64,000 bases of DNA from Thermoplasmatota archaeon (GTDB lineage Archaea > Thermoplasmatota > Penumbrarchaeia > JASLWR01). The stretch spans positions 1,905-65,904 of the forward strand of contig JASLWR010000009.1 in the NCBI GenBank assembly GCA_030740765.1, written 5' to 3'. Of the stretch, positions 41,920 to 55,669 are shown in pieces. Every line of letters begins with the position of its first letter. Within the stretch, counting starts at the first letter, position 1. Position numbers and translations under genes: made by a program. The notes beneath the pieces were generated by a model. It worked only from the letters and a program-made list of their open reading frames with translations. It was not told where the DNA came from and ran no database searches.

Positions 41920-41921
41920 TC

Positions 41922-43070: not shown

Positions 43071-43082
43071 GGAGGTGAAAGG

Positions 43083-44270
43083 ATGATCAAGAATAAAAAA
43101 ACCGTTATTATGTTTGTTATCACTCTATCTATCGTCCTCACGGTGCTCCAATATCAGGGTATTGTCCCGGGAACCTCGGACTCCGGAACTGAACTGAGAT
43201 CGGTCTATACGGAAGAGGATATCCCGGCCACAGACCCCGAATCAAGTTTATGGGATGAAGCCACATCCATCACAGTACCTATTTCAGGCCAGACAAGTAC
43301 CAATCCAAAACGGCTCTTGCCATCAGTGGAGTCCGTCCGTATCAAGTCCCTTAACAACGGCACCCACATCGCTTTTCGGATCACCTGGAATGACGCGGTC
43401 AAGAACAGCAAGACCACCAAGAATCAGGAGTTCCGTGACGCTCTTGCCATCCAGATCGCAGACAAGGGCTCCATCCCATTCGTCTGTATGGGATCTGCCG
43501 CAACCGGTACCACAAGAATGCATATTATGCAGTGGAAGTCCGATTGGCAGAGGGATATTGAAGAAGGGTTCCAGGATCTCGAGGACTCATTCCCCAACTT
43601 CTGGGTGGATTATTACCCCTATGCTGTGGGAGAGCCTCCTTATAGGGTTCCCGAGGACTTCCCCGGGAACGCAAGTCTCTACCTGCCCGGTTATCACGTG
43701 GGAAACCCATTCTCCGATCCATTGAAGGTCACTTCTGTGGAGGATGCCATAGCCGATGGTTACTCGACCATCACAACTCAAGCGATCCAGAACGCGGTTG
43801 GCCGCGGGGTCTGGAAGAACGGTACATGGAGCGTTGTGATCTCCAGGGCCTTGGACACCGGGGACCATGACGATACTGTGATCAAGGAGGATAATATCCT
43901 CGCCTTCGCCGTATGGGACGGGGAGAGCCAAGATGTGGGAGCGCGGAAGTCGGTCAGTAGCTGGGTCACCCTCAAGACCCGCGGTAAGACCAAAGAAGAA
44001 AATCCCCCATATGTTGCTCAGATCTGTATTCTGATATTGTATGTGATCGCTCTATTGGCTATCATCGGCCTCATTGGATTTGGACTGAAGCGAAAGAAAA
44101 AAGGGAAGGTCTCCAAGGAAGAAGGGGAGGCAACTGAGGATAAACCCGATTTAAAAGAAGAGGAGCAACCCAAGAAAACCGGGGAAGGTAAAAAGAAGAA
44201 GGTGGGACACTCTCAGAAGAAATCTCAGAAGAATAAGGTTAGCCCTGCAAAAAAGAGAAAAGGAGGTTGA
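43083..44270 (+). CDS. heme-b (gamma) subunit, ethylbenzene-dehydrogenase-gamma / NxrC-like (EB_dh domain) with a C-terminal TM anchor and Lys-rich tail
   Basis: N-terminal signal/TM, EB_dh-like beta-sandwich region (ITVPISGQ...IAFRITWND...AFAVWDGESQD), C-terminal TM (ICILILYVIALLAIIGLIGFGL) and a K/E-rich tail. Confidence 0.7.
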   Translation: MIKNKKTVIMFVITLSIVLTVLQYQGIVPGTSDSGTELRSVYTEEDIPATDPESSLWDEATSITVPISGQTSTNPKRLLPSVESVRIKSLNNGTHIAFRITWNDAVKNSKTTKNQEFRDALAIQIADKGSIPFVCMGSAATGTTRMHIMQWKSDWQRDIEEGFQDLEDSFPNFWVDYYPYAVGEPPYRVPEDFPGNASLYLPGYHVGNPFSDPLKVTSVEDAIADGYSTITTQAIQNAVGRGVWKNGTWSVVISRALDTGDHDDTVIKEDNILAFAVWDGESQDVGARKSVSSWVTLKTRGKTKEENPPYVAQICILILYVIALLAIIGLIGFGLKRKKKGKVSKEEGEATEDKPDLKEEEQPKKTGEGKKKKVGHSQKKSQKNKVSPAKKRKGG

Positions 44271-44276
44271 AGGAAG

Positions 44277-44990
44277 ATGACGGAAATAGATGATCATGTA
44301 CATGAATGCGAGATCTCTTTCACCAGATCCCAGGTGTACGGTCTCCTCGCCAGGATTTTCTCCAGTTCCGATCAGGTTCTTGATAACACCTTACTGCGGG
44401 ATCTCGGCCGAGTCACTTCCGAAACCTCGGATTACGTGGAATTGGACGATGATTTGACGCGCATAAAAGAGGCAATCCGCGCTATCGCCCCGACAGTAAG
44501 GGAAATGAACCAAGAATATACCCGCCTCTTTTCCAAGGGAGAGGCCCCCCCTTACGAATGCTCTTACGTACCCTCATCCAGGGTCACACATGAACTTGCT
44601 GATATCTCGGGTTTCTTTTTAGCTTTCGGCGTTCAACCAAAGGGGGAGCGCCAGGATAATCTCAGCAGCGAACTCGAGTTCATGTCCTTCCTGTGTCTTA
44701 AAGAATCCATCGCCCAATCCAACCAGATGCTGGAGGAGGCCAAGATATGCCGCGATGCACAAACCAAGTTTCTCACCGACCACCTAGGCAGGTGGATCGG
44801 CGTCTACCACCGCCTTGTAACAGACAAGACTAACTTCCCGATCTATCCCCTGTTGGTGGGTCTCGTTCATAAGATAGTCACACGGGACGCTTCATATCTG
44901 GGGGCCCGAATCGACGAAATCATAGAGGTGCCAATAGATGAGGCCCAAGACCTACCTGGATGCGGGATCGGCTCGAACTCGATATGCTAA
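44277..44990 (+). CDS. TorD/DmsD/NarJ-family redox-enzyme maturation chaperone (delta subunit)
   Basis: TorD-like signature (YTRLFSKGEAPPYECSY...LDHLG-like HLGRWIG). Confidence 0.75.
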   Translation: MTEIDDHVHECEISFTRSQVYGLLARIFSSSDQVLDNTLLRDLGRVTSETSDYVELDDDLTRIKEAIRAIAPTVREMNQEYTRLFSKGEAPPYECSYVPSSRVTHELADISGFFLAFGVQPKGERQDNLSSELEFMSFLCLKESIAQSNQMLEEAKICRDAQTKFLTDHLGRWIGVYHRLVTDKTNFPIYPLLVGLVHKIVTRDASYLGARIDEIIEVPIDEAQDLPGCGIGSNSIC

Positions 44991-45018
44991 TCTGCTTCCG
45001 GTATTTGTAAAGCTTTTG

Positions 45019-45990
45019 ATGATCTCTGCCCTAGTAGAGTTCATCATCCTTCGGGGTCTCAACAGGATGGCGGACCTCTATCCTTGGTGGATGAAGAGGG
45101 GCGGTACTGCCATAATGGTATTCATGGGAAACATCGCTTACAATTTAGCCTTCATAACATCAATAACGGTCGTTCTCATTATAGCTTATGTCTTTTGGAA
45201 CAAGGAAAAAAGACTATCACTGTTCCTGTTAATATGGGTCACGGTTCTCATTGGTGTCTCGGTCATCGGGTCGTGGATCGAGCTGATAGTGTTATTGGGC
45301 AGCATCACGGCGATCCTTCTCCTGTTTACCCTTGTGATGCGGAAGTCGCACAGGATTTTTTTCTCCCAAGGACATGAAACATTAGATACCGAAGCATCGG
45401 GAAAAATTCATCGTGGTGCGCTTCTACTGTTTTTTCTTTTCATCCTTATCGCATACCTCAGTGCTTTATACCTACACATAGGAAACGATCTCGCAAATCT
45501 GGGTTTGTCCCCTCCCGGAAGGACCGGGGTATATGGGATTGGAGAGGTCTTCGCTGTCGCATCGGCATTCCTGGCCTTGGTGGCGTTCTGGCGGAGGCCT
45601 CGCTTAGTCGATCTGGTCCTTCCGACCATAGTGGTCGGTGGTATGTTGACGTTCGCATTCTTACGCTCCGACATCTTACCCCTGGTGACCATGTGGTCAT
45701 TGGGTTTCCAGTTTTACCTGTTCCTACCGATCTATATTGGGGCCCTCTGGTGTTACCTTCTCACCTTATTTCTCCTCGTGCGCAGCAAGGGACGGAGAAA
45801 GTACCTCGTACCCGGCCTTTTGCTCATAGCTATCAGTGGACGCATGTTGAACGATTTCTATCTCATACAGATGGCAATGGTCGGTGTGCTCCTCCTCACC
45901 TTGGCCGACGACTTGGTCGAGTTTACCCTTGATACGAAAAGAAAATTGGTGCCAATGAAAATGGTTGAACATGGCCACCCGACCCGGTAA
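45019..45990 (+). CDS. polytopic membrane protein of unknown function (about 8 TM), last gene of the molybdoenzyme operon
   Basis: Multi-TM ORF overlapping the end of the chaperone gene. Start chosen at an internal Met to minimise overlap. No known quinol-oxidase motifs recognised. Confidence 0.45.
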   Translation: MISALVEFIILRGLNRMADLYPWWMKRGGTAIMVFMGNIAYNLAFITSITVVLIIAYVFWNKEKRLSLFLLIWVTVLIGVSVIGSWIELIVLLGSITAILLLFTLVMRKSHRIFFSQGHETLDTEASGKIHRGALLLFFLFILIAYLSALYLHIGNDLANLGLSPPGRTGVYGIGEVFAVASAFLALVAFWRRPRLVDLVLPTIVVGGMLTFAFLRSDILPLVTMWSLGFQFYLFLPIYIGALWCYLLTLFLLVRSKGRRKYLVPGLLLIAISGRMLNDFYLIQMAMVGVLLLTLADDLVEFTLDTKRKLVPMKMVEHGHPTR

Positions 45991-46082: not shown

Positions 46083-48503
46083 ATGTTCAGAGGCTCTAAT
46101 AAGGAGAAAAATAGTAAACCACTTGAAAAAACTCGCGCGCTGCCACTGATTGTCGCGATCAGTATGATATTGGTCGTTCTCCTTGTGGTAGACCTTGGTA
46201 CAATGGGTGATTCAAATAGAGCCTCCGACAATATGTGTATAGGTTGTCATGGTAACCGTTTTAAGGAGTATAGCAATCTTCTCCCCGGCGACCCCTTATC
46301 TGTGCTGCCAACAGAATTCACCGAGAATTCAACAGAGATTAAGATAGCTGTCGAGATAATCGACACGGGAGATCCCGGACCTCTGTCGTATTTCGAGATA
46401 TCCTCGCTACGAGTGACCCTTAACAGTATCGACAATAAATTGGACATTCCCAACCCTCAGCAGGAGAAAAATAATCTTTTTCCAGACGATAAGGTGATTT
46501 TTAATTGGTCGGTTACGGGGGTCCTACCGGGTGAGGACACCTTGACCATCAGCCTCTATGCATTAAATCCACATTATAATTGCGTGGCTATAGATACTTA
46601 TAGCTATATCGCCTCGATTATACTTCCATATGAGATACCTTCACAGCCTCAAAACGTCACGGCGATCCCGGGTGATGGTTATATAGTGTTATCATGGCAA
46701 GAACCGAACGATGATGGAGGTATACCCGTAATGGAATACAAAATATATCGTGGTGGAGATCCCGGTGGTGAAACTTATTATGATCTGGTGAGCAGCACAA
46801 TGACCTCATATAATGATACCTCGGTTACCAATGGAGAGACCTATTATTATTATATAACCGCAACAAATTTAATCGGTGAGTCCGAAAAGAGTCCCGAGGT
46901 CTTTGCTACCCCATATGGACGTCCTACGCCGCCATTGAATCCGAAGATAAATAGTGGAAATAGTTATGTTGAACTGGACTGGGAAACATCGATTGACGAC
47001 GGCGGATCACCAATAATGTTCTACAATATATACCGGGGGAATTCCTCGGGCAACGAGACTTACCATATTTCCCAGAATATTAATAAAACCTCATACAACG
47101 ATACAGCAGTTACTAATGGGGAAACATATTACTACTATGTTACCGCTGTTAATTCGGTCGGTGAATCCGATCCCGGTATCGAGGTGTTTGCATCACCCGG
47201 AAAAGATGTTACAAACCCTTCGGCCCCGGAAAATTTCGAGGCCATGGCAGGAAACGGTTTTGTCCACTTGTACTGGGAGATTCCATCTGATGACGGTGGT
47301 TCTGTTATAATGGGATATAAGATATTCCGGGGTATAAATTCCGGAGATTTTACTTTCTTTGATTCCGTATTGGGTTTCACAACCTCATACAACGATACCT
47401 CTGTTATCAACGGAGAAATTTATTATTACTATGTTACAGCGGTCAACCCGGTAGGAGAATCAGGGCCGAGTGATGTCAATATCACAAGCCCACGTGGCCT
47501 TCCGGAACCTCCAAAGGAAGTTCAGGCTACTATGGGCAAGGGGTATGTCATGTTAATCTGGAAAGCCCCGGATAACGATGGGGGAGCTATAATAACTGCT
47601 TATAGGATATACAGAGGCAATGGATCAAGCAATTTTATCGACTTTTCCCTGGTCAGCGGGTTAACGCTATCTTACAACGATACCTCTGTTATAAACGGAG
47701 TATCTTATTACTATTATGTTATTGCAATCAACTCCTTGGGGGAGAGCGATCCCAGTAATGAGGTAAACGTAATATCTCAGAGAGAACCTACGGCGCCCCG
47801 GAACCTGAGCGGGATACTTGGTCCCGGATATGTACATCTCTCATGGGAACCTCCGGTGGAGGACGGAGGTTTACCTATATTGATATATAATATCTATCGC
47901 GGTACTTTTTCGGGCGCCGAAACCTATCATTCATCTGTCAGTTCAATATTGACCCAATACCGAGATGCGGATTCAAACATATCATATTATAATAATATAT
48001 ATTATTATGTCACTGCAGTCAATTTTGTCGGAGAAAGCGCCCCGACCGATGAAGTTAATGTGACCATCCAAGAGGTGGGCACTGATTCCACTGAACCCGA
48101 TCTTCCTGAGGTAGCCTCGTACTTTCCCAAAAACAGGAATTTGCAGGCTAACCTGAATGAGGTTGTGGTATTCTATATGGAAGCTGACGGTAATGTATCT
48201 ATTAACTGGTATGTGGATAACGAGCCTTACGCAACCGGGACATCTACATTGAGCTATCCTGTAGTAAAACCCGGCACACGTACGATCAGGGCACGAATAA
48301 CGGATGAGATTTCCGATCGTTCCATTGAGATATCCTGGAATATCGTGACCACAGAAGATGATGCCAACATCGAGACTAACGAGCAGAGCAGTATCTCCCC
48401 GCTTCCTGGTTGGATGAGGAACTCTGTACTCTACGGCGGCATGGTCGTGCTCATGGTGCTGGGCGTATATCTTGCGATTTTTTACAGGAAGAGGAAACCA
48501 TGA
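46083..48503 (+). CDS. membrane-anchored protein with an N-terminal CXXCH motif (CIGCH), five tandem fibronectin type III domains, an Ig-like domain and a C-terminal TM helix
   Basis: N-terminal TM, NMCIGCHGN, five ~94-aa repeats each ending Y(K/N)IYRG...SYNDTSVTNGETYYYYVTAVN..GES, C-terminal TM (LYGGMVVLMVLGVYLAIFY). Confidence 0.7.
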   Translation: MFRGSNKEKNSKPLEKTRALPLIVAISMILVVLLVVDLGTMGDSNRASDNMCIGCHGNRFKEYSNLLPGDPLSVLPTEFTENSTEIKIAVEIIDTGDPGPLSYFEISSLRVTLNSIDNKLDIPNPQQEKNNLFPDDKVIFNWSVTGVLPGEDTLTISLYALNPHYNCVAIDTYSYIASIILPYEIPSQPQNVTAIPGDGYIVLSWQEPNDDGGIPVMEYKIYRGGDPGGETYYDLVSSTMTSYNDTSVTNGETYYYYITATNLIGESEKSPEVFATPYGRPTPPLNPKINSGNSYVELDWETSIDDGGSPIMFYNIYRGNSSGNETYHISQNINKTSYNDTAVTNGETYYYYVTAVNSVGESDPGIEVFASPGKDVTNPSAPENFEAMAGNGFVHLYWEIPSDDGGSVIMGYKIFRGINSGDFTFFDSVLGFTTSYNDTSVINGEIYYYYVTAVNPVGESGPSDVNITSPRGLPEPPKEVQATMGKGYVMLIWKAPDNDGGAIITAYRIYRGNGSSNFIDFSLVSGLTLSYNDTSVINGVSYYYYVIAINSLGESDPSNEVNVISQREPTAPRNLSGILGPGYVHLSWEPPVEDGGLPILIYNIYRGTFSGAETYHSSVSSILTQYRDADSNISYYNNIYYYVTAVNFVGESAPTDEVNVTIQEVGTDSTEPDLPEVASYFPKNRNLQANLNEVVVFYMEADGNVSINWYVDNEPYATGTSTLSYPVVKPGTRTIRARITDEISDRSIEISWNIVTTEDDANIETNEQSSISPLPGWMRNSVLYGGMVVLMVLGVYLAIFYRKRKP
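46639..48075. repeat. five tandem ~282-bp coding repeats (FN3 domains)
   Basis: Repeated protein-level units are visible in the translation. The DNA copies are diverged. Confidence 0.6.
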
Positions 48504-50122
48504 GAAAAATGGTTATTCTCTTTCTAATAACCATCATTCTGGTCCCCACAGCTGGCGGAGATTCCCATCGAAATACCGATTGTTTATCCTGTCATTCTTC
48601 ATCATACCCCATTTCCGGGTACGTCTATTATCCCCCGACGGTTTTTTTAAATGTTTCCATGTTTACAAAACGTGGGGTGGAATTTCCCGTAGAAGTGGGA
48701 ATTGATTTTATTGATTATGATATAAAGGAACTTCTAATAGAAATTACTCAAGATCCGAAAATCTTTAGTTTCAATGAATCCACTATAGAAGCATATGATC
48801 TGAAAAAGGGTACGAGATTCAAATTCACCGCTACTGCAATAAAGAACGGGGTTTCCAAAATAATCGTAACGGTAAATGCGATAACCTATTATGAGCATAA
48901 AACCATTGATGGATACGATTATCGGGAAGAAGTGATAGAGAAAAGTAGGATCATCAGTGTTGGTAGTACATCGTTGGTACCTTCATCCTGGAACGTATTG
49001 TTGGATGATGCGGGCGGGGAAATAACCCTGACCGCAGTGGAGGACATCACCGATCTAACTGTTTTCACATCATCCTCTCTCGAAGCAAAGCCCACCGGCA
49101 GGAACTTTCTATCGGCAGATAGTGAACTGGACATCTTCTTGCGCCCCACATCTCGAAAAAAGATCGATGAGAATATAATAATATCGTGGCGGGTGAACAA
49201 CACACCCTATGCTATTCCAATAAGTGTTTTATACAATCCCCAAGCGCCCAAAGTAACTGATTATTTTCATTGGATCGGAAGAATCACCGGTATATCTACT
49301 CTTGTACTGCTTTTGATCTCCATAGTTCTCGGCGGTATATGGAATACCGGAGGTTATCTAAACCGGATGATCAGCGCCAAGCGAAGGGTGAGGTATCATT
49401 GCGCCGTATCGTGGTTTCTTTTTGGATTGGCTATCTATCACGGCTCCGTTCTTCTATCCGGTCCTTACACTGACCAGCTCTGGAACATTTGGATCATATT
49501 AGGTTATCTCGCCGCCGTTACGATGCTGGTGGTGAGCCTGACCGGGAGCTTTATGAAGTTTACGATAAAGTTGATAGGTGCCAAGAACTGGCGCAGGGTC
49601 CACCTTTACTCAACATTTCTTTCCCTTGCATTTGTAATTTTTCATGGGATCGCCATGGGAACGGATTTTACATTCATTAGGGAACGAGAGGATATTGTTT
49701 TCTGGGCGATTATGGGTACGGTATTGTTCGCTGGAGTTATTGTTTTGACGCTCTATTTAAACGAAAGAGAAAAAGGACTGACTCGGATACAACATCATTC
49801 CCTTGATCCTAGGGGATCCGATGATTCTGATGATGATTTATACTGGCAAGACGATTATCGAGAAGACGATTGTCGGGAAGACGATCACAGATTGGATGTT
49901 TACGGGACGGACGACCCATGGCAAGACGATTATCGTCAAGATAAATACGGATCGGATGATTACTACAATGAAGCAAAAAAAGAAGTTGAGATACCATGTC
50001 CCAAGTGTGGTGAACAATTATCCCCACCCTATAAGTTCTGCACTACCTGCGGTTTGAGGCTAGCTAAGGAAAACTTTAAAATTGGAAAAAGGAAAAAGTG
50101 GAGGAGTGGTAACAGAGGATAG
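48500..50122 (+). CDS. fusion protein: N-terminal CXXCH domain (CLSCH) + ferric-reductase-like di-heme-b transmembrane domain + acidic DDY-repeat tail + C-terminal zinc ribbon
   Basis: ATGA overlap with the previous gene. DCLSCHSS after an N-terminal TM. Two TM helices each carry His pairs 14 residues apart (YHCAVSWFLFGLAIYHG; VHLYSTFLSLAFVIFHG), as in FRD/cytochrome b561-type bis-heme domains. Tail: DDYREDD.. repeats and CPKCGEQL...CTTCGL. Confidence 0.65.
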   Translation: MRKMVILFLITIILVPTAGGDSHRNTDCLSCHSSSYPISGYVYYPPTVFLNVSMFTKRGVEFPVEVGIDFIDYDIKELLIEITQDPKIFSFNESTIEAYDLKKGTRFKFTATAIKNGVSKIIVTVNAITYYEHKTIDGYDYREEVIEKSRIISVGSTSLVPSSWNVLLDDAGGEITLTAVEDITDLTVFTSSSLEAKPTGRNFLSADSELDIFLRPTSRKKIDENIIISWRVNNTPYAIPISVLYNPQAPKVTDYFHWIGRITGISTLVLLLISIVLGGIWNTGGYLNRMISAKRRVRYHCAVSWFLFGLAIYHGSVLLSGPYTDQLWNIWIILGYLAAVTMLVVSLTGSFMKFTIKLIGAKNWRRVHLYSTFLSLAFVIFHGIAMGTDFTFIREREDIVFWAIMGTVLFAGVIVLTLYLNEREKGLTRIQHHSLDPRGSDDSDDDLYWQDDYREDDCREDDHRLDVYGTDDPWQDDYRQDKYGSDDYYNEAKKEVEIPCPKCGEQLSPPYKFCTTCGLRLAKENFKIGKRKKWRSGNRG

Positions 50123-50387
50123 GGTACAAATAGAGGTCGGGAAAACATACCGAGAATGCAGTGCTAAATTATTTCCCCATGAGAGGTTCTGTATCGGCTG
50201 CGGAACGAAAATGGTAAGTTGAAAAGGTGTTCATATGGCTGGAAAGAATAGGAAAAAAGACGTTAGTTTATACTGCATTATTCGTTGCGGGAATTATTAT
50301 TGTTGCATCGGCTATCGCTCAATATTCACAAAATAGCTTCAGCGAAGGATGTAACAACGAGGGAGAAAGTGAAAAAAACTCATGGCT

Positions 50388-52043
50388 TCAATCGATATTA
50401 TCTTTCTTCGCCCATTGAACCATTATGTCCTTTAGCTGCGCCTTCTGAGCAGCATCTAGTTCCCCCGCCTGATTTAGTACTTGCTCCACTTCTTCCGGTT
50501 GGATGCGTCCGTCGGCTAGTGCGGTATTGACAGCTGCTATAAGCTCAGGCGAGGTTTTTTCAAGGCTCAAAGATATATTTCTTACGCGCGCCTTACTTAG
50601 GCTGTCATCTATTTTCTTCTCGATAACAAGGTACTGGTTTTCGTCGAGCTTACCCTTGCGGTAGTGTCTCGTGACCTCCTCGCGTAAGTTGGCGAGCTCA
50701 GTATCCAAATGATCCAAGTTGTTCCCCTGTTCTTTCACCTTCTTATCGATTTTGTCCAGATAGCCATGGACATTGGCTTTCTGTCGCCGGAGCATTACCC
50801 AACCCACGATAGAAATGAGTATCGCACCAACCGCAAATAATGGCTCCCAATAGCGTTCTAAAAAACTCTGCTTTCCCACTTCGGCACCACCAACTGTCTC
50901 ACCCTTCCCAATCGTCTTGAAGGTATATTCATAGTCAAGCATTTTATTGCCGGCGAGGTCTTCCACATCAGAGATGTGTACTGTATAGGTAGTCCGGGCA
51001 GTGAGCAGATCAGTGCTTGTGAAAGTGAGAATGGAACGGTTGTTCTCAACGGTAAGGGAAAGATTGCCTGACAGCGGGGTCTCGTCAGCCAATAGCTCTA
51101 TCCGGGCTCCATCACGCACCTCTTCGTTGAATCGTGCTGTAATATTAGTCGCCAGGTTAACATTCTCCGCATTTGGCATCGGTCGCAGCTGCTCTGCGAT
51201 CACCATCGGTTCGATCGTGTCTACAGTCACCCCAACGACTACCCGACTATCCTCGGTACCCAGCCACTCATGGGTGGGTGTGCGAAGGTCTATGATGAGT
51301 AGATGGAAGCCCTCGGTTAAGGATGCATAGGTAAGGGGCGCCGTGGTAGTGTGCATCTGGCGGTTGTCAGCATCCACCTCGTCATACATGTAGTGCATGT
51401 GCGGTCCACCGTAGTAACCACCTGATATGGTATGGTTCTCAACGGTGAATTTGACCACTACATTCGTACCAACATAGTCACCATCCCGGGGGTTTTGTAC
51501 GACCAATCGCGCCTTGCCTACTGTAAAAGCGAGTTTGACATCAGTTAGGGATGCTCCGGAAGAATCGTTTACATTACTAAGATCCATTGTGATCTCCTCG
51601 CCAAATGGGTAGAGGTGAAAAATAGATCCCTGACCAAGTCCGCAGTCACGATCAGGAAGGTTGACACGAATCATGTTCCCGCTGATTGAAAGGGTAACTG
51701 CTAAGGGACCGAAGACATTGCTATTTACACTCACTATCGCAGTGGATATATCGGGGGAGGTGCCATAGTCCACGAGAATATGGTCAAGGTCATGCCAATT
51801 GACGAGGCTACCGTTGGCAGGAGTAAAAATTGGCTCTACGGCGCGCCCTCTAACGCTATCTTCGACGCTACCACCAGCCTCGGCTGCTGTCTCATCTGCA
51901 ATCATTGGTAGAAAGATTAGTGACACTCCAAACAAGATAAGAACAAGCAGTGCGGATGAGTGCATCCAATTTATCCGCGAAGGTGTCTTGCCGGGTATCG
52001 GTAATATACTATTCTTTATCTTGTCTGTCTCCTCATTACTCAT
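50388..52043 (-). CDS. cell-surface protein with Ig-like (SbsA/Big-type) domains, a TM anchor and a cytoplasmic coiled-coil tail
   Basis: N-terminal signal/TM, beta-rich ectodomain, TM (LFAVGAILISIVGWVML), then a heptad-rich K/E tail. Confidence 0.55.
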   Translation of the reverse strand: MSNEETDKIKNSILPIPGKTPSRINWMHSSALLVLILFGVSLIFLPMIADETAAEAGGSVEDSVRGRAVEPIFTPANGSLVNWHDLDHILVDYGTSPDISTAIVSVNSNVFGPLAVTLSISGNMIRVNLPDRDCGLGQGSIFHLYPFGEEITMDLSNVNDSSGASLTDVKLAFTVGKARLVVQNPRDGDYVGTNVVVKFTVENHTISGGYYGGPHMHYMYDEVDADNRQMHTTTAPLTYASLTEGFHLLIIDLRTPTHEWLGTEDSRVVVGVTVDTIEPMVIAEQLRPMPNAENVNLATNITARFNEEVRDGARIELLADETPLSGNLSLTVENNRSILTFTSTDLLTARTTYTVHISDVEDLAGNKMLDYEYTFKTIGKGETVGGAEVGKQSFLERYWEPLFAVGAILISIVGWVMLRRQKANVHGYLDKIDKKVKEQGNNLDHLDTELANLREEVTRHYRKGKLDENQYLVIEKKIDDSLSKARVRNISLSLEKTSPELIAAVNTALADGRIQPEEVEQVLNQAGELDAAQKAQLKDIMVQWAKKDNID

Positions 52044-52460
52044 ATCATACCTCTAAAACTTGTGTTCTCTTGCTGATAGAACATCTATACCTTATAGAAT
52101 TTACTCACTATGTTTCATGAATTTCAATTTCTACGCTCCTTATGATCCTCGGGTGTGTTCTGATATCTCCATATCTTCTCGATGCTTAAGACAGGCTGTA
52201 GAGGTCGTTTCAACCCTCTTATTATCGTCCCCCGATACGCCTCACAGGGCTTATTAGGTGGTTTCTTGGACAGTACCCCTAATAGTAAATAATGGGTTAA
52301 GCTTCATTATTTAAAATTTCCATTTCAAATTCATCCGGTTGCAAGTAGCCAATGAATCACCCTCGAAAACCTTTGGGTTTTCTACGGATACATCTGTGGA
52401 AAGTTCATTCCACGTCGATTGGCAAAAAGGCGGATACTTCAGATGACTGCTTACAATTTA

Positions 52461-55106
52461 TTATATAATTCCGACGAGTAAGAGACCTCCGATAATGGTG
52501 AATAACATCAAAACGAGAGTTATTCGGCCAGACCACCGGTGTACGTTACGAATGATATTCCTTTTCTTTTTTATTTTTAGCAGCAGCACTCCGAGGATCG
52601 GCATGCTTATGATAAATATCGCTGTCAAAGCACCCAAAAAGGTATGGGTAACCCTGAAATGTATTCCTCCGGATGAACCCACCATGTAGAATGCGAATAT
52701 TATCCCGATAACAGATGATGCCGCACCCGCCGATCCCAGTAACCTGTGCGCTTTCAGCCACCATTTTTTTTTCTTCATGAACCTGGCAATGGTGACTCCG
52801 GTGGCCATTAATAATAATCCCAAACTCATTAACACTGCGTGATACGGCCACCAAACAGACACCTTTTTTTCCCAATATTCACCTGTGGCGATATCCAAGG
52901 TAGCGTAACCCTTCTTTGTATGCTTTAGTTCACGACTGTCCTCTGGGCTCATTGCCCATATTACATTCAATCTACCGTCGGGATCGATGTCATGATCATA
53001 CTTATCGCCTGTGGATAAATATCGCTTGAATTCGATTATAGTAATACCGTTTTCCTCCGAGCCGCTAAAGGATAATATGTCCGAGGTACCTCCCTTATCC
53101 ACATCGATCAGATGGGGCCCTCCTTCTTCTTCGGAATAGGTGTCAAGCGCGATCACATCATCACCGGAAACCGAACCGATTATTATATCGGCATCCTTCA
53201 TCATTTTCTCGGCATCAAAACCGATGGCCACCCATCCCGTGGTCTTTCCCTCGATGGCCATATAAATGGATTTACCATCGACGCGCCAGTGTAATATGAA
53301 ATTTCCGTCATCGAATGATGCTTCGAATTCGTATTCACCCTCTGTAATTATTCCATCGAGATTATAGACCACTTCAATATGGGAGGTTGCATTATTTCCC
53401 GAGGTGTCCGAGGCCCTTGCATAGATGGTGTTAGTTCCTTCCCTCAGAGAGATCAAAGCGGTCCAGTTAAGAGTGCCCTGGGCTGCTATCCATTCCTCTT
53501 CGTTGACTTTCACCTCTATTTTATCCAGTTCCACATCATCATATGCAGTGCCATTCACGGTTATCTTACGTACATCCAGCTCCTCGTTGTTCAGTGGCCA
53601 CAAAATTGATATGACCGGTGGAGCAAAATCAGGCGGCGTGTATGTAACGTTAACAGAATCGGAGGCATGGTTGCCGGAAGAATCAGTGGCCCTGGCTATT
53701 ATACGATTATTTCCTTCCACAAACGTTAATTCAACGCTCCACGATTCCGTGCCCTCGGTTAACTTCCAGACACCGTCATTTACCTTCACATCTACCCTGC
53801 TCAGGGCGGCATTGTCAGTGGCATTCCCTTTTACCGTTATCGTGCCCGTTTCAAACACCTGGCTCTCAAGAGGTGATGATATCTTGATCCAGGGAGGTAT
53901 CTCGTCGAGTGGCCCCGAGCTATTATAAGTGACGTTTACTACATCCGTGGCTTCATTGTCGGAGGCGTCGATGGCCTTGGCATAGATCGTATTTTGACCC
54001 TCTGCCAGCATCAGATCTATGCTCCATGAATCCGTTCCCTGGGCCAACTGCCATTGACCGGTGTTCAGCTTGCCCTCCACCCTGCCCAAAGCTTCGTCAT
54101 CATCGGCGGTTCCGCTCACGGTTATCTGGTCCGTGTAGAACACTTCTCCTTCTGTGGGGACGGATATATATATAATTGGGGGGGTGGAATCAACATAGGT
54201 GACGTTAACAGTGCCCGTGGCCTCGTTCTGATATTGGTCGGTGGCCTTAGCATAGATCGTATTTACTCCAGGGGCAAGAGTGACCTGTATTGTCCAAGAA
54301 ACCGTCCCGGTGGCCTGCTGCCAAGCTCCTTCGTTCACTTTCACCTCTACGGTATCCAATCCTCTATCGTCAGATGCCATGCCGGAGACGGTAATTTGTT
54401 CAGTGGAGACCTCAACACCGTTTGACGGTGATGTGATGGATATGGTAGGGGCATTGGTGTCCAAGCTCTCGGGTACAACCCACGAATTCTTATTCCAGCC
54501 ATCCCCGTTATTTTTACCATTCCCATTTACGGCGTTACCAGCCAAATAAAATGTTATAGTTCCGGTGCCTGGACCGGGGGCTGTCCAATCGATATCCCAG
54601 GATCTCTGGTTTTTATTGGTATGGCTTGCCTGATTCTGAGCAATGTTTATTTGAACATTTCCATCCGTTGTCGAGAGACTTCCGGAAGACACCTCAAGAT
54701 TAAAACCTCCCAGGGCGGTTGCCGGCCCACCGTTTAAACTCAGGGTGAGAGGATATGTTTGAGCGGAGCTATAGTTATTTGGTAACCCGTTTATGGAAAC
54801 TGCCACTGTCGGATCGGGGGTTGGTGAGTGACATGTACAACCCGTTTGAGCTTTATCAAACTTACCTCCACTTCTTGCTCCCACTTCCAAAACAGCAACA
54901 CTGCCAATCAATATCAATAGAAGAACCAGTCCGTATGTTTTGGCTGGATTTGTACCATTTTTAATCATGAGGGAAATATTCTTCTGTTTTTTCGGACAGC
55001 TATGATATACGTTCCTTCCTCTTTTATCAGACCGTTTTTTTCTAAAAAAGTGGTTTTTCATTTCCTTTTCAGAAGGAATAATATCATCCATGTTTGTAAA
55101 TAACAT
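52461..55106 (-). CDS. N-terminal CXXCH (CTCH) + 4 Ig-like repeats + DOMON domain + cytochrome b561/ferric-reductase-like TM domain protein
   Basis: Signal/TM, then GCTCHSPTPDP. Four ~90-aa repeats (ITVSG.A.DD..L..VEVKVN.G.W..A.GT.SW...L.EG.NTIYA.A.D..N.A). DOMON-like block (GWVAIGFDAEKMMKDADIIIG...IIEFKR). C-terminal 4-5 TM helices with conserved His residues. Confidence 0.65.
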   Translation of the reverse strand: MLFTNMDDIIPSEKEMKNHFFRKKRSDKRGRNVYHSCPKKQKNISLMIKNGTNPAKTYGLVLLLILIGSVAVLEVGARSGGKFDKAQTGCTCHSPTPDPTVAVSINGLPNNYSSAQTYPLTLSLNGGPATALGGFNLEVSSGSLSTTDGNVQINIAQNQASHTNKNQRSWDIDWTAPGPGTGTITFYLAGNAVNGNGKNNGDGWNKNSWVVPESLDTNAPTISITSPSNGVEVSTEQITVSGMASDDRGLDTVEVKVNEGAWQQATGTVSWTIQVTLAPGVNTIYAKATDQYQNEATGTVNVTYVDSTPPIIYISVPTEGEVFYTDQITVSGTADDDEALGRVEGKLNTGQWQLAQGTDSWSIDLMLAEGQNTIYAKAIDASDNEATDVVNVTYNSSGPLDEIPPWIKISSPLESQVFETGTITVKGNATDNAALSRVDVKVNDGVWKLTEGTESWSVELTFVEGNNRIIARATDSSGNHASDSVNVTYTPPDFAPPVISILWPLNNEELDVRKITVNGTAYDDVELDKIEVKVNEEEWIAAQGTLNWTALISLREGTNTIYARASDTSGNNATSHIEVVYNLDGIITEGEYEFEASFDDGNFILHWRVDGKSIYMAIEGKTTGWVAIGFDAEKMMKDADIIIGSVSGDDVIALDTYSEEEGGPHLIDVDKGGTSDILSFSGSEENGITIIEFKRYLSTGDKYDHDIDPDGRLNVIWAMSPEDSRELKHTKKGYATLDIATGEYWEKKVSVWWPYHAVLMSLGLLLMATGVTIARFMKKKKWWLKAHRLLGSAGAASSVIGIIFAFYMVGSSGGIHFRVTHTFLGALTAIFIISMPILGVLLLKIKKKRNIIRNVHRWSGRITLVLMLFTIIGGLLLVGII
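53351..54431. repeat. four tandem ~270-bp coding repeats (Ig-like domains) within the 52461-55106 gene
   Basis: Protein-level repeats seen in the translation. Coordinates approximate. Confidence 0.5.
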
Positions 55107-55246: not shown

Positions 55247-55669
55247 TTAATATTTAAGTTGTAATCGCTGTATATGTCGCGTGTTTAGAACCATGGCACC
55301 CAATAAAAGTAATATACCAAATAATGAAGTCAAACCAACGAAAGGTGCAAGAAGCATTGCGGAACTCATACCTATGATACTTACAGCTATCGGAGAACAG
55401 CATGTGATCATACTTATAACCATGCCAACTACACCTAGTGCTCCACCTTCTCTACATTTACAGCGATTTTTGATACTGTATGCTACCAGTGCAATATTCA
55501 TACTCATCAATATGGTAACAATTATTGCTGTCGGCACAAGAACACTAAATAGATAGATGTCGGTTCCAGTTGGATTACTCGTACCGAAGATCGCAGTCCC
55601 AATTTTTATCAGCCCGGAAAAGTAAAGCGAAGCCCTAAAAATTCCTATTCCATCGTTCGCTTCGCTCAC
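55247..55669 (-). CDS. small hydrophobic membrane protein, unknown function
   Basis: 140 aa with 4 predicted TM helices. Confidence 0.4.
   Translation of the reverse strand: MSEANDGIGIFRASLYFSGLIKIGTAIFGTSNPTGTDIYLFSVLVPTAIIVTILMSMNIALVAYSIKNRCKCREGGALGVVGMVISMITCCSPIAVSIIGMSSAMLLAPFVGLTSLFGILLLLGAMVLNTRHIQRLQLKY

What the first reader, a model, noticed from the sequence alone, without database searches (positions are those of the whole stretch)
46083..55106. Three surface/membrane proteins each with a single N-terminal CXXCH motif, fused to FN3 repeats, a di-heme-b FRD domain, or Ig+DOMON+cyt-b561: candidate archaeal extracytoplasmic electron-transfer module
Directly downstream of the molybdoenzyme operon, three genes begin with a signal/TM helix followed within ~15 residues by CIGCH, CLSCH and CTCH respectively. 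The three local contexts are similar (GDSNRASDNMCIGCHG, GDSHRNTDCLSCHSS, DKAQTGCTCHSPT). The remainders are completely different: (i) 5 FN3 + Ig + TM; (ii) a ferric-reductase-like two-helix bis-His (H-x13-H twice) transmembrane heme-b domain plus an acidic DDY repeat tail and a Zn ribbon; (iii) four Ig-like repeats + DOMON + cytochrome-b561-like TM domain. DOMON-b561 and FRD domains are transmembrane electron shuttles. Combined with mono-heme-c-like N-terminal modules and adhesin-like repeats, this resembles a modular conduit delivering electrons across the membrane or S-layer to or from the neighbouring Mo-enzyme. I am not aware of this combination being described.
Basis: partly seen in the sequence, partly recalled or inferred. 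Interest (0 to 1): 0.85.

Follow-up and report, generated by a model that had tools for sequence, protein, structure and literature searches.

The report
Archaeal beta-sandwich monohaem cytochrome c modules
Two adjacent surface or membrane proteins of a marine Thermoplasmatota archaeon start with an uncatalogued beta-sandwich domain that almost certainly carries one covalently bound haem, one of them fused to a two-haem membrane domain; with a neighbouring protein built like the animal ferric reductase FRRS1, they look like machinery for moving electrons out of the cell.

Summary
p1 (46083-48503) has CIGCH and p2 (48500-50122) has CLSCH just after the signal helix. About 0.04 CXXCH are expected by chance in the window's 40 proteins, and these are the only two. 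p3 (52461-55106, minus strand) has CTCH, which is C-x-C-H and not CXXCH.

The p1 and p2 N-termini are one homologous module of about 140 aa. It occurs in about 107 protein clusters, with Cys 98%, Cys 99%, His 100% and an invariant distal His. No Pfam or NCBIfam model and no PDB sequence relative covers it. Relatives sit next to cytochrome c maturation genes in at least eight lineages, including a ccmFABCE-p1-p2 operon and direct fusions to haem-handling proteins. The same MAGs hold a Ccm locus. These are very probably monohaem c-type cytochrome modules.

p2 adds four invariant His (H-x13-H twice) in a ferric-reductase-type domain. p3 is Reeler-like/choice-of-anchor-V + 4 Ig + DOMON + cytochrome b561, the FRRS1 architecture. 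Its module is a remote homologue of the p1/p2 module (hhalign 94%).

The link to the Mo-enzyme rests on adjacency only. p1 is syntenic with it in a sister strain, but p2 to p3 are missing there, and p1-p2 pairs occur elsewhere without any Mo-enzyme. Verdict: partly supported; a new variant of a known kind.

The parts
46083..48503 (+). p1: signal/anchor helix, monohaem-c module, 5 FN3, 1 Ig-like domain, C-terminal TM helix
   Evidence: ORF. fn3 1.8e-26. NCBI MDP6155199.1 'fibronectin type III domain-containing protein'. Orthologue 84% identical over the N-terminal module directly behind the Mo operon in sister strain L017.
46203..46652 (+). p1 N-terminal monohaem-c module (residues 41-190): CIGCH at 46236-46250, distal His164 at 46572-46574
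   Evidence: BLASTP p1N vs p2N E=9e-5 over 143 aligned columns. Invariant C, C, H, G, H in the 30-sequence alignment A4. AF2 model pLDDT 93.4, pTM 0.86, beta-sandwich with a short helix at CXXCH. No Pfam hit.
46641..48077 (+). p1: five FN3 repeats
   Evidence: Pfam fn3, 4 stretches. Five 'YYY' signatures at residues 254, 349, 447, 542, 640.
48500..50122 (+). p2: signal peptide, monohaem-c module, Ig-like domain, 5-helix di-haem-b (FRD-type) domain, acidic tail, zinc ribbon. The start overlaps the p1 stop (ATGA).
   Evidence: P0001 100% identical. Alignment A1. AF2 model. Overlap seen in the sequence.
48557..48961 (+). p2 N-terminal monohaem-c module: CLSCH at 48581-48595, distal His133 at 48896-48898
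   Evidence: CXXCH kept in all 9 homologues with a complete N-terminus. Profile search found 131 clusters. Conservation measured.
49262..49780 (+). p2 transmembrane di-haem-b domain: His300 (49397), His314 (49439), His368 (49601), His382 (49643)
   Evidence: Four His invariant in 11 homologues. Helices 255-280, 293-320, 330-359, 361-386, 399-427. DUF4405 8e-5. Ferric_reduct hit in 8 relatives. NCBI names paralogue P0009 'ferric reductase-like transmembrane domain-containing protein'.
49991..50062 (+). p2 cytoplasmic zinc ribbon (CPKCG...CTTCG), preceded by an acidic D/Y-rich tail (49781-49990)
   Evidence: Zn_Ribbon_1 2.2e-5, Zn_ribbon_3 2e-4. The tail is not conserved among homologues.
52461..55106 (-). 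p3: Reeler-like/choice-of-anchor-V module, 4 Big_7 Ig domains, DOMON, 4-helix cytochrome b561 core (FRRS1-like architecture). Probable true start is M47 at 54968.
   Evidence: An 835-aa cluster member fits the M47 start.
54483..54899 (-). p3 N-terminal module: CTCH at 54828-54839 (C-x-C-H), conserved His162 at 54621-54623
   Evidence: NCBIfam NF041895 choice_anch_V 1.1e-30, 106.7 bits against a cut-off of 42. Pfam Reeler 7.8e-4, 20.4 bits against a cut-off of 21. Cys spacing varies among homologues. Remote homology to the p1/p2 module.
52950..53312 (-). p3 DOMON domain (extracytoplasmic haem-b/sugar-binding fold)
   Evidence: PF03351 2.2e-27, 96.2 bits against a cut-off of 32.7.
52482..52844 (-). 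p3 cytochrome b561-type membrane domain, with His756, His787, His821 and His856 on four helices
   Evidence: PF03188 2.7e-6, 28.1 bits against a cut-off of 23. His positions and hydrophobic segments.
38380..45990 (+). Context: outward-facing type II DMSO-reductase-family Mo-enzyme operon. Alpha has a twin-arginine signal (38380-41919); beta FeS (41916-43070); gamma EB_dh haem-b subunit with a C-terminal TM anchor (43083-44270); NarJ-like chaperone (44277-44990); 350-aa polytopic membrane protein (44938-45990).
   Evidence: All five genes plus p1 are conserved in the same order in L017/L018.
50388..52043 (-). p4: surface protein with a Big_5 Ig domain, His-rich segment, TM helix and cytoplasmic coiled-coil tail. 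No Cys-His motif. It belongs to the variable insert and is probably not a redox protein.
   Evidence: Big_5 6.2e-12, DUF6130 0.0043. Absent from the sister strain.
55247..55669 (-). 140-aa membrane protein with 3-4 predicted helices next to p3; part of the variable insert; no family match

Best explanation
p1 and p2 each begin with the same extracytoplasmic beta-sandwich module. It binds one haem c covalently through CXXCH, and an invariant His about 105-110 residues downstream is the likely sixth ligand. An archaeal System I (Ccm, with CcmE of the CxxxY type) encoded elsewhere in the genome matures it.

In p2 the module sits one Ig domain away from a five-helix membrane domain. Two haems b are stacked between two helices (H-x13-H twice, ferric-reductase/MsrQ-type), and the C-terminus is cytoplasmic. 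p2 is therefore a b-b-c transmembrane electron shuttle. It takes electrons at the membrane or cytoplasmic side (no flavin or NAD(P)H domain is present, so membrane quinol is the likely donor, as proposed for MsrQ) and delivers them to its outer haem c.

p1 is translationally coupled to p2. It is the partner cytochrome, with the same module on an FN3 stalk, and passes electrons on.

p3 is an independent shuttle of the FRRS1 type: di-haem b561 core, then DOMON haem b, then a Reeler-like tip. Its tip domain is a distant homologue of the p1/p2 module. Its C-x-C-H motif is not a canonical haem-c site.

At this locus the most likely acceptor is the outward-facing Mo-enzyme, through its haem-b gamma subunit. 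Soluble c-type cytochromes serve selenate, chlorate and DMS enzymes of the same family in this way.

Shown: the motifs, their conservation, the domain identities, the homology, the Ccm linkage and the synteny.
Inferred: haem occupancy, the direction of electron flow, the quinol donor, the p2-to-p1 transfer and the Mo-enzyme as acceptor.
For: Non-random motif: 0.036 CXXCH expected in the window's proteins, 2 observed in adjacent genes at equivalent positions.

One module: p1N against p2N gives BLASTP E=9e-5 over 143 aligned columns.

The family:
- The module profile finds 131 clusters among 1.84 billion representatives.
- 107 carry the full module at the N-terminus, with C 98%, C 99%, H 100%.
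- Nearly all have exactly one CXXCH in the whole protein.
- C, C, H, G and the distal H are invariant in a 30-sequence alignment spanning all subtypes.

Maturation linkage:
- L012 has ccmF-ccmA-ccmB-ccmC-ccmE followed by a p1-type and a p2-type gene, all on one strand.
- A small WWD haem-handling gene lies directly downstream of the module-FRD gene in L005, L010, L020, L023, L025 and L026.
- CcmABC(D)E, a divergent haem-handling protein and Trx-CcdA lie within 10 kb in L003/L011, L013-L015 and L022.
- 6 of 104 family members are fused to a Cytochrom_C_asm/CcmC-like domain.

Same organism:
- Paralogue P0009, which sits in the Ccm locus, carries NCBI accessions from both MAGs that hold the window locus. 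It also occurs in both samples that hold the window's contig.
- The sister strain has both loci on one 307,536-bp contig.

Membrane domain:
- Four invariant His and five helices with a cytoplasmic tail.
- Ferric_reduct hits in 8 relatives.
- In L010 and L020 a p1N-type module is fused directly to the same membrane domain, so the two module subtypes are interchangeable.

Coupling: the p1 stop and p2 start overlap as ATGA, and the p1-p2 pair is conserved in L005 and L012.

p3: DOMON, b561, choice_anch_V and Reeler matches.

Mo-enzyme:
- The alpha subunit has a twin-arginine signal and gamma is an EB_dh haem-b subunit with a TM anchor.
- The gene order alpha-beta-gamma-delta-membrane protein-p1 is kept in the sister strain.

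Background from my own knowledge: type II DMSO-reductase-family enzymes SerABC, ClrABC and DdhABC exchange electrons with c-type cytochromes.
Against: - No haem has been observed; everything rests on sequence and gene neighbourhood.
- In p1 the module lies at the far end of six Ig-type domains from the C-terminal anchor. If the N-terminal helix is cleaved, the single haem is too far from the membrane for direct electron transfer. It would then need a flexible stalk or a retained N-terminal anchor. The same problem applies to the tip module of p3.
- p2 to p3 are missing from the sister strain's Mo locus.
- p1-p2 pairs and module-FRD genes occur next to unrelated genes elsewhere (rubrerythrin, an Mrp/complex-I-like cluster, a Cu ATPase). 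The module is therefore not specific to the Mo-enzyme.
- A TATA-like TTATTTAA sits in the 92-nt gap before p1, so p1-p2 may be a separate transcription unit.
- PF01794 does not hit p2 itself.
- The whole-protein AF2 model is mediocre (pTM 0.40) and has low confidence around the CXXCH.
- No Ccm gene lies within the 64-kb window.
Confidence: 0.55

Rival explanations
1. Cell-surface metal reductases, unconnected to the Mo-enzyme. p2 (FRD-type di-haem b plus haem c) and p3 (b561 + DOMON + Reeler-like, the architecture of ferric-chelate reductase FRRS1) export electrons to reduce extracellular Fe(III) or Cu(II) for uptake or detoxification, as the eukaryotic FRE/NOX-type, STEAP, Dcytb and FRRS1 proteins do. 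p1 presents a haem at the cell surface as the contact point.
For: - Two unrelated 'ferric-reductase-like' architectures sit side by side.
- The paralogous module-FRD gene lies beside a Cu-type P-ATPase and HMA metallochaperones in L003, L007, L013-L016 and L022.
- The p2-p3 block is dispensable for the Mo operon in the sister strain.
- p1-p2 pairs exist without a Mo-enzyme.
- Placing the haem module at the tip of long stalks suits contact with external substrates better than docking on a membrane-anchored enzyme.
Against: - No metal transporter for the reduced ion is encoded beside p1-p3 in the window.
- The Cu ATPase and HMA genes near the paralogue can equally be cofactor-maturation genes clustered with ccm.
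- p1 keeps its position behind the Mo operon in two strains.
- There is no experimental precedent in archaea.
Confidence: 0.25
2. Part of extracytoplasmic haem handling rather than respiration. The module is a haem carrier that receives haem from the small WWD protein or Ccm. The di-haem-b domain keeps that haem reduced, as the b-haem of CcmF does. The carrier then hands haem on, for example to extracytoplasmic haem-b proteins such as the EB_dh gamma subunit and the DOMON domain encoded next door.
For: - There is very tight linkage to, and even fusion with, WWD haem-handling proteins.
- The window locus contains two extracytoplasmic haem-b domains, EB_dh and DOMON, whose haem supply is unexplained.
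- P0165 has CSSYH instead of CXXCH and is fused to a haem-handling domain.
Against: - A strictly conserved CXXCH plus an invariant distal His is the signature of a stable six-coordinate cytochrome, not of a transient carrier.
- Many family members are large surface proteins with FN3, PKD or Big_5 stalks and no nearby maturation gene (for example L019).
- CcmE is already present in these genomes.
Confidence: 0.1
3. The Cys-x-x-Cys-His plus His residues form a redox-active disulfide or a metal (Zn/Cu/Fe) site and bind no haem. The membrane domain would then reduce a dithiol or metal centre outside the cell.
For: - In the related p3/choice-of-anchor-V clade the Cys spacing varies from 1 to 4 residues. 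This fits a disulfide loop or metal site better than a canonical haem-c site.
- Eukaryotic Reeler domains are non-haem proteins (PMC4429474 used spondin, 'a non-heme protein', as its template).
Against: - In the p1/p2 clade the spacing is fixed at two residues in 98-99% of 107 clusters, and the following His is 100% conserved.
- The operon and fusion links are to haem-handling proteins (CcmC/CcmF/CcmE), not merely to thiol reductases.
- L003-type loci already encode a Trx-CcdA fusion for thiol reduction.
- The signal peptides are Sec-type, as expected for apocytochromes.
Confidence: 0.07

Closest known systems
Hypothetical Reeler-like monohaem cytochromes c of Ignicoccus hospitalis (Igni_0579/Igni_1052, 'cluster 38'; Kletzin et al. 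2015, PMC4429474)
   Same: An N-terminal TM/signal helix is followed at once by CXXCH (Cys28, Cys31, His32). A beta-sandwich body was modelled on the reelin-N domain of F-spondin. A conserved downstream His (His111) was proposed as distal ligand. One paralogue has a C-terminal TM helix. These proteins occur in archaea with Ccm. (From.)
   Different: The p1/p2 clade does not hit Reeler or choice_anch_V models directly; the link appears only in profile-profile comparison (94%). The fusions to an FRD membrane domain, FN3 stalks, haem-handling proteins and ferredoxin domains, and the ccm-operon linkage, were not described there.
FRRS1/SDR2 and CYBDOM proteins (eukaryotic Reeler-DOMON-cytochrome b561 ferric-chelate reductases)
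   Same: p3 has the same three domain types in the same order: Reeler-like, DOMON, b561, with four His on four helices. The expected function is transmembrane electron export to an extracellular acceptor.
   Different: p3 is archaeal. Four Big_7 Ig domains are inserted between the Reeler-like and DOMON domains. The b561 core is minimal, with about four helices instead of six. The Reeler-like domain carries C-x-C-H plus a conserved His. Ascorbate, the eukaryotic donor, is not expected in archaea.
Ferric reductase domain superfamily without a dehydrogenase domain (MsrQ/YedZ type), and DUF4405
   Same: His pairs on two TM helices, spaced 13 apart, could ligate two stacked haems b. There is no FAD/NADPH domain. 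Electrons are handed to an extracytoplasmic redox partner.
   Different: p2 has five helices plus a cleaved signal, and its partner (a c-haem module) is fused to the same chain. PF01794 does not score p2 itself. No solved structure matches by sequence. MsrQ is reported with one haem b and serves a Mo-enzyme, MsrP (my own knowledge).
c-type cytochrome electron partners of type II DMSO-reductase-family enzymes (selenate, chlorate and DMS enzymes) and pNar-type archaeal nitrate reductases
   Same: An outward-facing alpha-beta-gamma enzyme with an EB_dh haem-b gamma subunit needs an external electron donor or acceptor linked to the quinone pool.
   Different: Known partners are classical alpha-helical cytochromes c or bc-type complexes. 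Here the candidates are beta-sandwich monohaem modules on an FRD domain and on an FN3 stalk. The link is by gene adjacency only.
Cytochrome f
   Same: It is a mainly beta-sheet c-type cytochrome whose CXXCH lies close to the mature N-terminus (my own knowledge).
   Different: No homology was detected. Cytochrome f uses the N-terminal amino group as sixth ligand, whereas this module has an invariant distal His.

Membership tests
c-type cytochrome (covalent haem via CXXCH, matured by System I/Ccm) | CXXCH motif in an exported (Sec signal) polypeptide | tested here: met
   p1 has CIGCH at 52-56 and p2 has CLSCH at 28-32, each after an N-terminal hydrophobic helix with no twin-arginine motif. p3 has CTCH only, so the feature is not met for p3.
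c-type cytochrome (covalent haem via CXXCH, matured by System I/Ccm) | Motif and an axial ligand conserved across homologues | tested here: met
   C 98%, C 99%, H 100% in 107 clusters. C, C, H and the distal H are invariant in A4. There is one CXXCH per protein in nearly all members.
c-type cytochrome (covalent haem via CXXCH, matured by System I/Ccm) | Maturation system present in the same genome | tested here: met
   None is in the window. CcmA/B/C/(D)/E, a divergent haem-handling protein and Trx-CcdA lie beside paralogue P0009, which is found in both NCBI MAGs and both samples that hold this locus. The sister strain has both loci on the same 307.5-kb contig. This is met at MAG/contig level, not from a closed genome.
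c-type cytochrome (covalent haem via CXXCH, matured by System I/Ccm) | Covalently bound haem detected | not testable with these tools
   This needs haem staining, a pyridine haemochrome assay or mass spectrometry.
Ferric reductase domain (PF01794) / di-haem-b two-helix family | Two His pairs, each H-x12/13-H, on two transmembrane helices | tested here: met
   H300/H314 and H368/H382 are invariant in 11 homologues and lie on helices 293-320 and 361-386.
Ferric reductase domain (PF01794) / di-haem-b two-helix family | Significant match to the family profile | tested here: inconclusive
   p2 gives no PF01794 hit even at E<=10, DUF4405 8e-5 (23.5 bits against a cut-off of 26.7) and Ni_hydr_CYTB 0.19. 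Eight of 104 module-family members hit PF01794 (best 6.9e-8). NCBI names paralogue P0009 ferric reductase-like.
Ferric reductase domain (PF01794) / di-haem-b two-helix family | Cytoplasmic FAD/NAD(P)H dehydrogenase domain (NOX/FRE subtype) | tested here: not met
   The C-terminal tail is acidic and low-complexity with a zinc ribbon only. p2 is therefore at most of the MsrQ-like, dehydrogenase-less subtype.
FRRS1/CYBDOM architecture (Reeler + DOMON + cytochrome b561) | DOMON domain | tested here: met
   PF03351 2.2e-27, 96.2 bits against a cut-off of 32.7.
FRRS1/CYBDOM architecture (Reeler + DOMON + cytochrome b561) | Cytochrome b561 core with four haem-ligating His | tested here: met
   PF03188 2.7e-6, 28.1 bits against a cut-off of 23. 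His756, His787, His821 and His856 lie on four hydrophobic helices. Conservation of these His in homologues was not tested.
FRRS1/CYBDOM architecture (Reeler + DOMON + cytochrome b561) | Reeler domain | tested here: inconclusive
   PF02014 7.8e-4, 20.4 bits, just under the cut-off of 21, covering profile positions 49-119 only.
Choice-of-anchor V domain (NCBIfam NF041895) | Profile match above the curated cut-off | tested here: met
   p3 residues 70-208: 1.1e-30, 106.7 bits against a cut-off of 42. p1 and p2 give no direct hit. Four of 104 module-family members hit it. Profile-profile comparison of A4 and A5 gives 94%, E about 1e-7, against controls of 0.3-11%.
Type II DMSO-reductase-family Mo-enzyme (context) | TAT-exported alpha, FeS beta, EB_dh haem-b gamma and NarJ-type chaperone | tested here: met
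   The RRGFLK signal is in the alpha subunit. TIGR03479, TIGR03478 and TIGR03477 are the best hits, but all fall below the equivalog/subfamily cut-offs. EB_dh scores 2e-23 and Nitrate_red_del 4.4e-18. The substrate (nitrate or other) was not determined.

The most novel reading that the evidence does not exclude
The p1/p2 module, the choice-of-anchor V domain and the eukaryotic Reeler domain form one superfamily of extracytoplasmic beta-sandwiches with an N-terminal C-x(1-4)-C-H site. The archaeal members are a new structural class of monohaem cytochrome c, with their own miniature WWD haem lyase.

Fused to, or paired with, a ferric-reductase-type di-haem-b domain, they would form a minimal self-contained electron-export chain in planktonic Thermoplasmatota: quinol, then two haems b, then haem c, then a stalk-borne haem c.

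This would also suggest that the unexplained Reeler domain of FRRS1-type ferric reductases descends from, or still acts as, the terminal redox or metal-contact domain.
Probability: 0.3. Interest if true: 0.8.

Novelty: new variant of a known kind. Interest (0 to 1): 0.66.

Why it matters
c-type cytochromes have been considered rare or absent in Thermoplasmatota. The 2015 survey (PMC4429474) found only two candidate proteins, in single-cell genome data of Thermoplasmatales. Marine planktonic members are usually modelled as simple aerobic heterotrophs.

If confirmed, three things follow:
- A conserved, Ccm-linked monohaem module with a beta-sandwich fold would add a structural class to the cytochromes c, one that motif-plus-fold screens miss. 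No Pfam or NCBIfam model covers it.
- Fused to a ferric-reductase-type membrane domain, it would give these archaea a route for electrons to the cell exterior. That bears on how their outward-facing nitrate-reductase-like enzyme is wired to the membrane in low-oxygen water, and on possible extracellular metal reduction.
- The remote link to Reeler/choice-of-anchor V domains gives a testable idea for a domain whose role in FRRS1-type reductases is unknown.

Tried and rejected
- Word-indexed homologue search with p1 residues 1-199 returned nothing, not even p1 itself. The exhaustive profile search was needed instead.
- Single-sequence hhalign of p3N against the small profile A2 gave only 22%. 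Deeper profiles gave 94%, so the first result was a sensitivity limit, not evidence against homology.
- Foldseek on the full p2 model gave only generic tandem-Ig hits.
- A PDB sequence search with the p2 family profile found nothing at E<=10.
- The AFDB library was unavailable, and model coordinates are not exposed, so the His-His geometry could not be measured.
- The GTDB genome scan found only 4 loci and not the window's own genome. The metagenome scan found 5.
- Pfam scans of the window's other ORFs of at least 150 aa found no ccm gene.
- A Rieske-type or other Fe-S reading of C-x-C-H in p3 was rejected. There is no second Cys-x-His box, the module has only two Cys, and the signal is Sec-type rather than TAT.
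- Chance occurrence of CXXCH was rejected on the counts and on conservation.
- P0099, a stalked family member, has no ccm gene within 10 kb, so Ccm linkage is not universal for the family.
- Literature searches for Marine Group II plus cytochrome c maturation, choice-of-anchor V function, and follow-ups to Igni_0579 returned nothing relevant.

Full report
**1. What is at the coordinates**

The region holds four genes on two strands.
- p1: 46083-48503 (+), 806 aa.
- p2: (+), real start the ATG at 48500, 540 aa, identical to database protein P0001.
- p4: 50388-52043 (-), 551 aa.
- p3: 52461-55106 (-), 881 aa. It probably starts at M47, because an 835-aa cluster member exists.

The p1 stop codon and the p2 start codon overlap as ATGA.

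Upstream, on the same strand as p1 and p2, lies a type II DMSO-reductase-family operon:
- an alpha subunit with an RRGFLK twin-arginine signal;
- an FeS beta subunit;
- an EB_dh haem-b gamma subunit with a C-terminal TM anchor;
- a NarJ-like chaperone;
- a 350-aa polytopic membrane protein.

NCBI holds these proteins as MDP6155194-MDP6155202 of a 'Candidatus Thermoplasmatota archaeon' MAG, on a contig of 73,279 bp.

**2. The observation**

p1 has CIGCH at residues 52-56, and p2 has CLSCH at 28-32. Each lies within 15 residues of the N-terminal hydrophobic helix.

From the Cys and His content of the window's 40 proteins, 0.036 CXXCH are expected in total. These two are the only ones found.

The domain calls were checked:
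- FN3: 1.8e-26, with five repeats by signature.
- Big_7 x4: 5.8e-33.
- DOMON: 2.2e-27.
- Cytochrom_B561: 2.7e-6, above the cut-off.
- Zinc ribbon: 2.2e-5, borderline.

For p2's membrane part, PF01794 does not score. DUF4405 scores 8e-5, which is sub-threshold.

**3. The p1 and p2 N-termini are one conserved module**

p1N and p2N align over 143 columns at E=9e-5, including the CXXCH and a downstream His.

All nine p2 homologues with complete N-termini keep C-x-x-C-H.

A profile of the module was searched against 1.84 billion cluster representatives:
- It found 131 clusters at E<=1e-3 and 37 at E<=1e-10.
- 107 carry the whole module at the N-terminus.
- In these, the first Cys is 98% conserved, the second Cys 99% and the His 100%.
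- Nearly all have exactly one CXXCH in the entire protein.
- Hits lacking the motif are internal repeats in giant Ig-repeat proteins that match only the sandwich part.

In a MAFFT alignment of 30 sequences covering the p1-type, p2-type and 'typical' subtypes, the only invariant columns are C, C, H, one Gly and a His about 108 residues after the motif. That His is His164 in p1 and His133 in p2.

AlphaFold2 on this alignment gives a confident model for the p1 module (pLDDT 93.4, pTM 0.86). It is a beta-sandwich with a one-turn helix over the CXXCH.

No Pfam or NCBIfam model covers the module, either in p1 and p2 or in 104 family members. No PDB sequence matches the p2 family profile.

**4. Linkage to cytochrome c maturation**

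No ccm gene is in the window. The relatives give a consistent picture.

- L012 has, on one strand and contiguous: ccmF (Cytochrom_C_asm 1.2e-27 + CcmF_C 1.8e-24), ccmA, ccmB, ccmC and ccmE (ending CASKY, the archaeal CxxxY type). A 723-aa surface protein with a p1-type module (CLDCH) follows, and then a p2 orthologue (CSTCH + HCAVSWF).
- In L005/L006/L009 a p1 orthologue (CQGCHGNRYKEY ... AHNPHK) abuts a p2 orthologue. A 148-aa protein with the haem-handling motif WGSYWSWDPKET comes directly after (Cytochrom_C_asm 4.6e-17).
- The same small WWD gene follows the module-FRD gene in L010, L020, L023, L025 and L026.
- In L003/L011, L013-L015 and L022 the p2 paralogue lies within 10 kb of several genes:
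  - ccmA, ccmB, ccmC, a small ORF and ccmE (CPSKY);
  - a divergent haem-handling protein (Cytochrom_C_asm 4.9e-4);
  - a thioredoxin-CcdA fusion;
  - a Cu-type P-ATPase;
  - a second FN3 protein.
- Six of 104 family members are fused to a CcmC/CcsB-like domain. One example is P0165.

That paralogue, P0009, has NCBI accessions in both MAGs that carry the window locus (MDP6156543.1 and MDP7265280.1). It is also found in both samples (ERZ27245254, SRR10556728) that contain the window's contig.

In a sister strain the Mo alpha subunit is 97% identical. There the Ccm locus (L003, positions 5-27 kb) and the Mo operon plus p1 (L017, positions 55-79 kb) are on the same 307,536-bp contig. That contig also encodes a multihaem cytochrome.

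Not every family member has a ccm neighbour; L019 does not.

Taken together, I put the probability that the p1/p2 module binds haem c at about 0.8.

**5. The rest of p2**

Four His (H300, H314, H368, H382) are invariant in 11 homologues. They lie on helices 293-320 and 361-386 of a five-helix bundle.

With the N-terminal modules outside, the C-terminal acidic tail and the zinc ribbon are cytoplasmic. The geometry H-x13-H twice is that of the ferric-reductase/MsrQ-type di-haem family.

Eight module-family relatives hit PF01794 (best 6.9e-8). NCBI labels the paralogue ferric reductase-like.

There is no flavin or NAD(P)H domain. L010 and L020 carry a p1-type module fused to the same membrane domain, so the two module subtypes are interchangeable.

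**6. p3**

Residues 70-208 are a choice-of-anchor V domain (NF041895, 1.1e-30). They just miss the Pfam Reeler cut-off (7.8e-4, 20.4 against 21 bits). With DOMON and b561, this gives the FRRS1/SDR2 architecture, with four Ig domains inserted.

Among p3N homologues the motif varies:
- C-x-C-H in four;
- CXXCH in one;
- C-x3-C-H in the sister strain's PKD protein;
- C-x4-C-H in one.

Only the 'CH' is fixed. A second His (HT[NG]) is kept in the C-x-C-H group.

Profile-profile comparison of the p1/p2 family (A4) with the p3N family (A5) gives 94% probability and E about 1e-7 over 108 columns, with the Cys-His motifs aligned. The same profile against p1's FN3 repeats, p3's Big_7 repeats and p2's second Ig domain gives 0.5%, 0.3% and 11%.

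The three N-terminal modules are therefore remote homologues. Whether p3's binds haem covalently is open. No C-x-C-H haem-c site is known to me.

**7. Is it one system, and does it serve the Mo-enzyme?**

In the sister strain the order alpha-beta-gamma-delta-membrane protein-p1 is intact. After p1 comes a 43-aa ORF that is the remnant of p2's signal peptide (MRKMVFLFLITII), then a PKD protein with its own choice-of-anchor-V-like domain, then the geranylgeranyl reductase gene. p2, p4, p3 and the 140-aa membrane protein are absent.

The losses are complementary:
- In the sister strain the paralogue P0005 is intact.
- In the window's population the paralogue P0009 is split by an in-frame TGA, seen in four assemblies, and p2 is intact.

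This suggests that one functional module-FRD gene per genome is enough, and that p2 is not specialised for the Mo-enzyme.

p1-p2 pairs elsewhere sit beside unrelated genes. A TATA-like TTATTTAA lies in the 92-nt gap before p1.

The Mo-enzyme link therefore rests on adjacency, on p1 synteny in two strains, and on the general need of an outward-facing haem-b-containing Mo-enzyme for an electron partner. I rate it at about one in three.

**8. Mechanism and rivals**

The best reading is that p2 is a b-b-c transmembrane electron shuttle, p1 is its co-translated cytochrome partner, and p3 is an independent FRRS1-like shuttle. The Mo-enzyme is the most likely local acceptor.

The main weakness is geometric. 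In p1, and at p3's tip, the module is six (respectively five) domains away from the membrane anchor unless the N-terminal helix is retained.

The rivals are:
- Extracellular Fe/Cu reduction. Two ferric-reductase-like architectures sit side by side, and Cu ATPase and HMA genes neighbour the paralogue.
- A role in haem trafficking or maturation, suggested by the fusions to WWD proteins.
- A non-haem disulfide or metal site.

**9. Comparison with the literature**

Kletzin et al. 2015 (PMC4429474) listed Igni_0579/Igni_1052 as hypothetical monohaem cytochromes c. They modelled these on the reelin-N domain of F-spondin, with CXXCH at 28-32 and a conserved His111. They found c-type cytochromes in Thermoplasmatales only as two proteins in single-cell genome data.

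I found no follow-up to that work. I also found no description of the p1/p2 clade, of its FRD, FN3, WWD or ferredoxin fusions, or of its ccm-operon linkage. The searchable library is incomplete.

**10. Verdict**

This is a real, non-random feature. The module is best filed as a new variant of a known kind: a c-type cytochrome in an uncurated Reeler-like beta-sandwich form, fused to a known type of di-haem-b membrane domain. p3 is an archaeal member of a known architecture.

Noticed in passing
L013:9965-9967 (also L014, L015, L016): The p2 paralogue next to the Ccm locus is split by an in-frame TGA ('GAC TAC TGA GAG GAG'). The stop falls where homologues have Arg. It separates a 155-aa CXXCH module from the 392-aa Ig+FRD part (P0009), and it is seen in four independent assemblies. 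It could be a pseudogene, a split gene or a recoded stop.
   Followed up: partly
L017:20124-20255 and L017:20275-21345: In the sister strain a 43-aa ORF (MRKMVFLFLITII...) is the remnant of p2's signal peptide. The replacement gene encodes a 356-aa protein with a choice-of-anchor-V-like domain (CGGSCH, C-x3-C-H), a PKD domain, a TM helix and a C-terminal zinc ribbon. This indicates recent gene turnover behind p1.
   Followed up: partly
window 50124-50222 (+1 frame relative to p2): Directly after the p2 stop, a different frame reads VQIEVGKTYRECSAKLFPHERFCIGCGTKMVS*. It looks like a decayed second zinc-ribbon half, as if p2 once ended in a double zinc ribbon that was cut off by a frameshift.
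   Followed up: no
window 50388-52043 (-), p4 residues about 179-270: The surface protein p4 has a His-rich segment (GGPHMHYMYDEVD ... HLLIIDLRTPTHEW) with a weak DUF6130 match (0.0043). It also has a cytoplasmic coiled-coil tail. It may be a metal-binding surface protein.
   Followed up: no
L005:11408-11854; L010:1515-1913; L020:11077-11496: A family of very small (132-148 aa) WWD haem-handling proteins has an N-terminal 'YIHPPLAI' motif and 'WG.YWSWDPKET'. They are far shorter than CcmC or CcmF and always lie directly downstream of the module-FRD gene. They may be a minimal dedicated haem lyase.
   Followed up: partly
L003:16811-17908 (-) and L003:14648-16423 (+): The divergent haem-handling protein (365 aa) and the thioredoxin-CcdA fusion (591 aa) in the Ccm locus share a similar N-terminal extracytoplasmic segment ('FVLSWQDDEGSSSDPDTFSL' and 'FTLSWTDDEPESDPDEFKL').
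   Followed up: no
family members (4 of 104): Some module-bearing proteins carry 4Fe-4S ferredoxin domains. Others carry CarboxypepD_reg, PEGA, Kre9_KNH or InlB B-repeat domains. The module is a promiscuous N-terminal cap on many archaeal surface proteins, often joined by Pro/Thr-rich linkers.
   Followed up: no
p2 residues 428-497 (window 49781-49990); L003:20820-21458 (-): Both p2-type and p1-type proteins end in poorly conserved cytoplasmic tails rich in Asp, Glu, Tyr and Trp (DDY/DDW repeats).
   Followed up: no
window 37095-37586 (-): An IS200/Y1 transposase gene (Y1_Tnp 8.1e-30) lies about 800 bp upstream of the Mo-enzyme operon. Rinke et al. (PMC6461757) inferred horizontal acquisition of nar genes in Poseidoniales.
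   Followed up: no
window 44938-45990 (+): A 350-aa membrane protein with about 8-9 predicted TM helices overlaps the NarJ-like gene. It is conserved with the Mo operon in the sister strain (91% identical) and has no Pfam or NCBIfam match. It may be the enzyme's membrane partner.
   Followed up: partly
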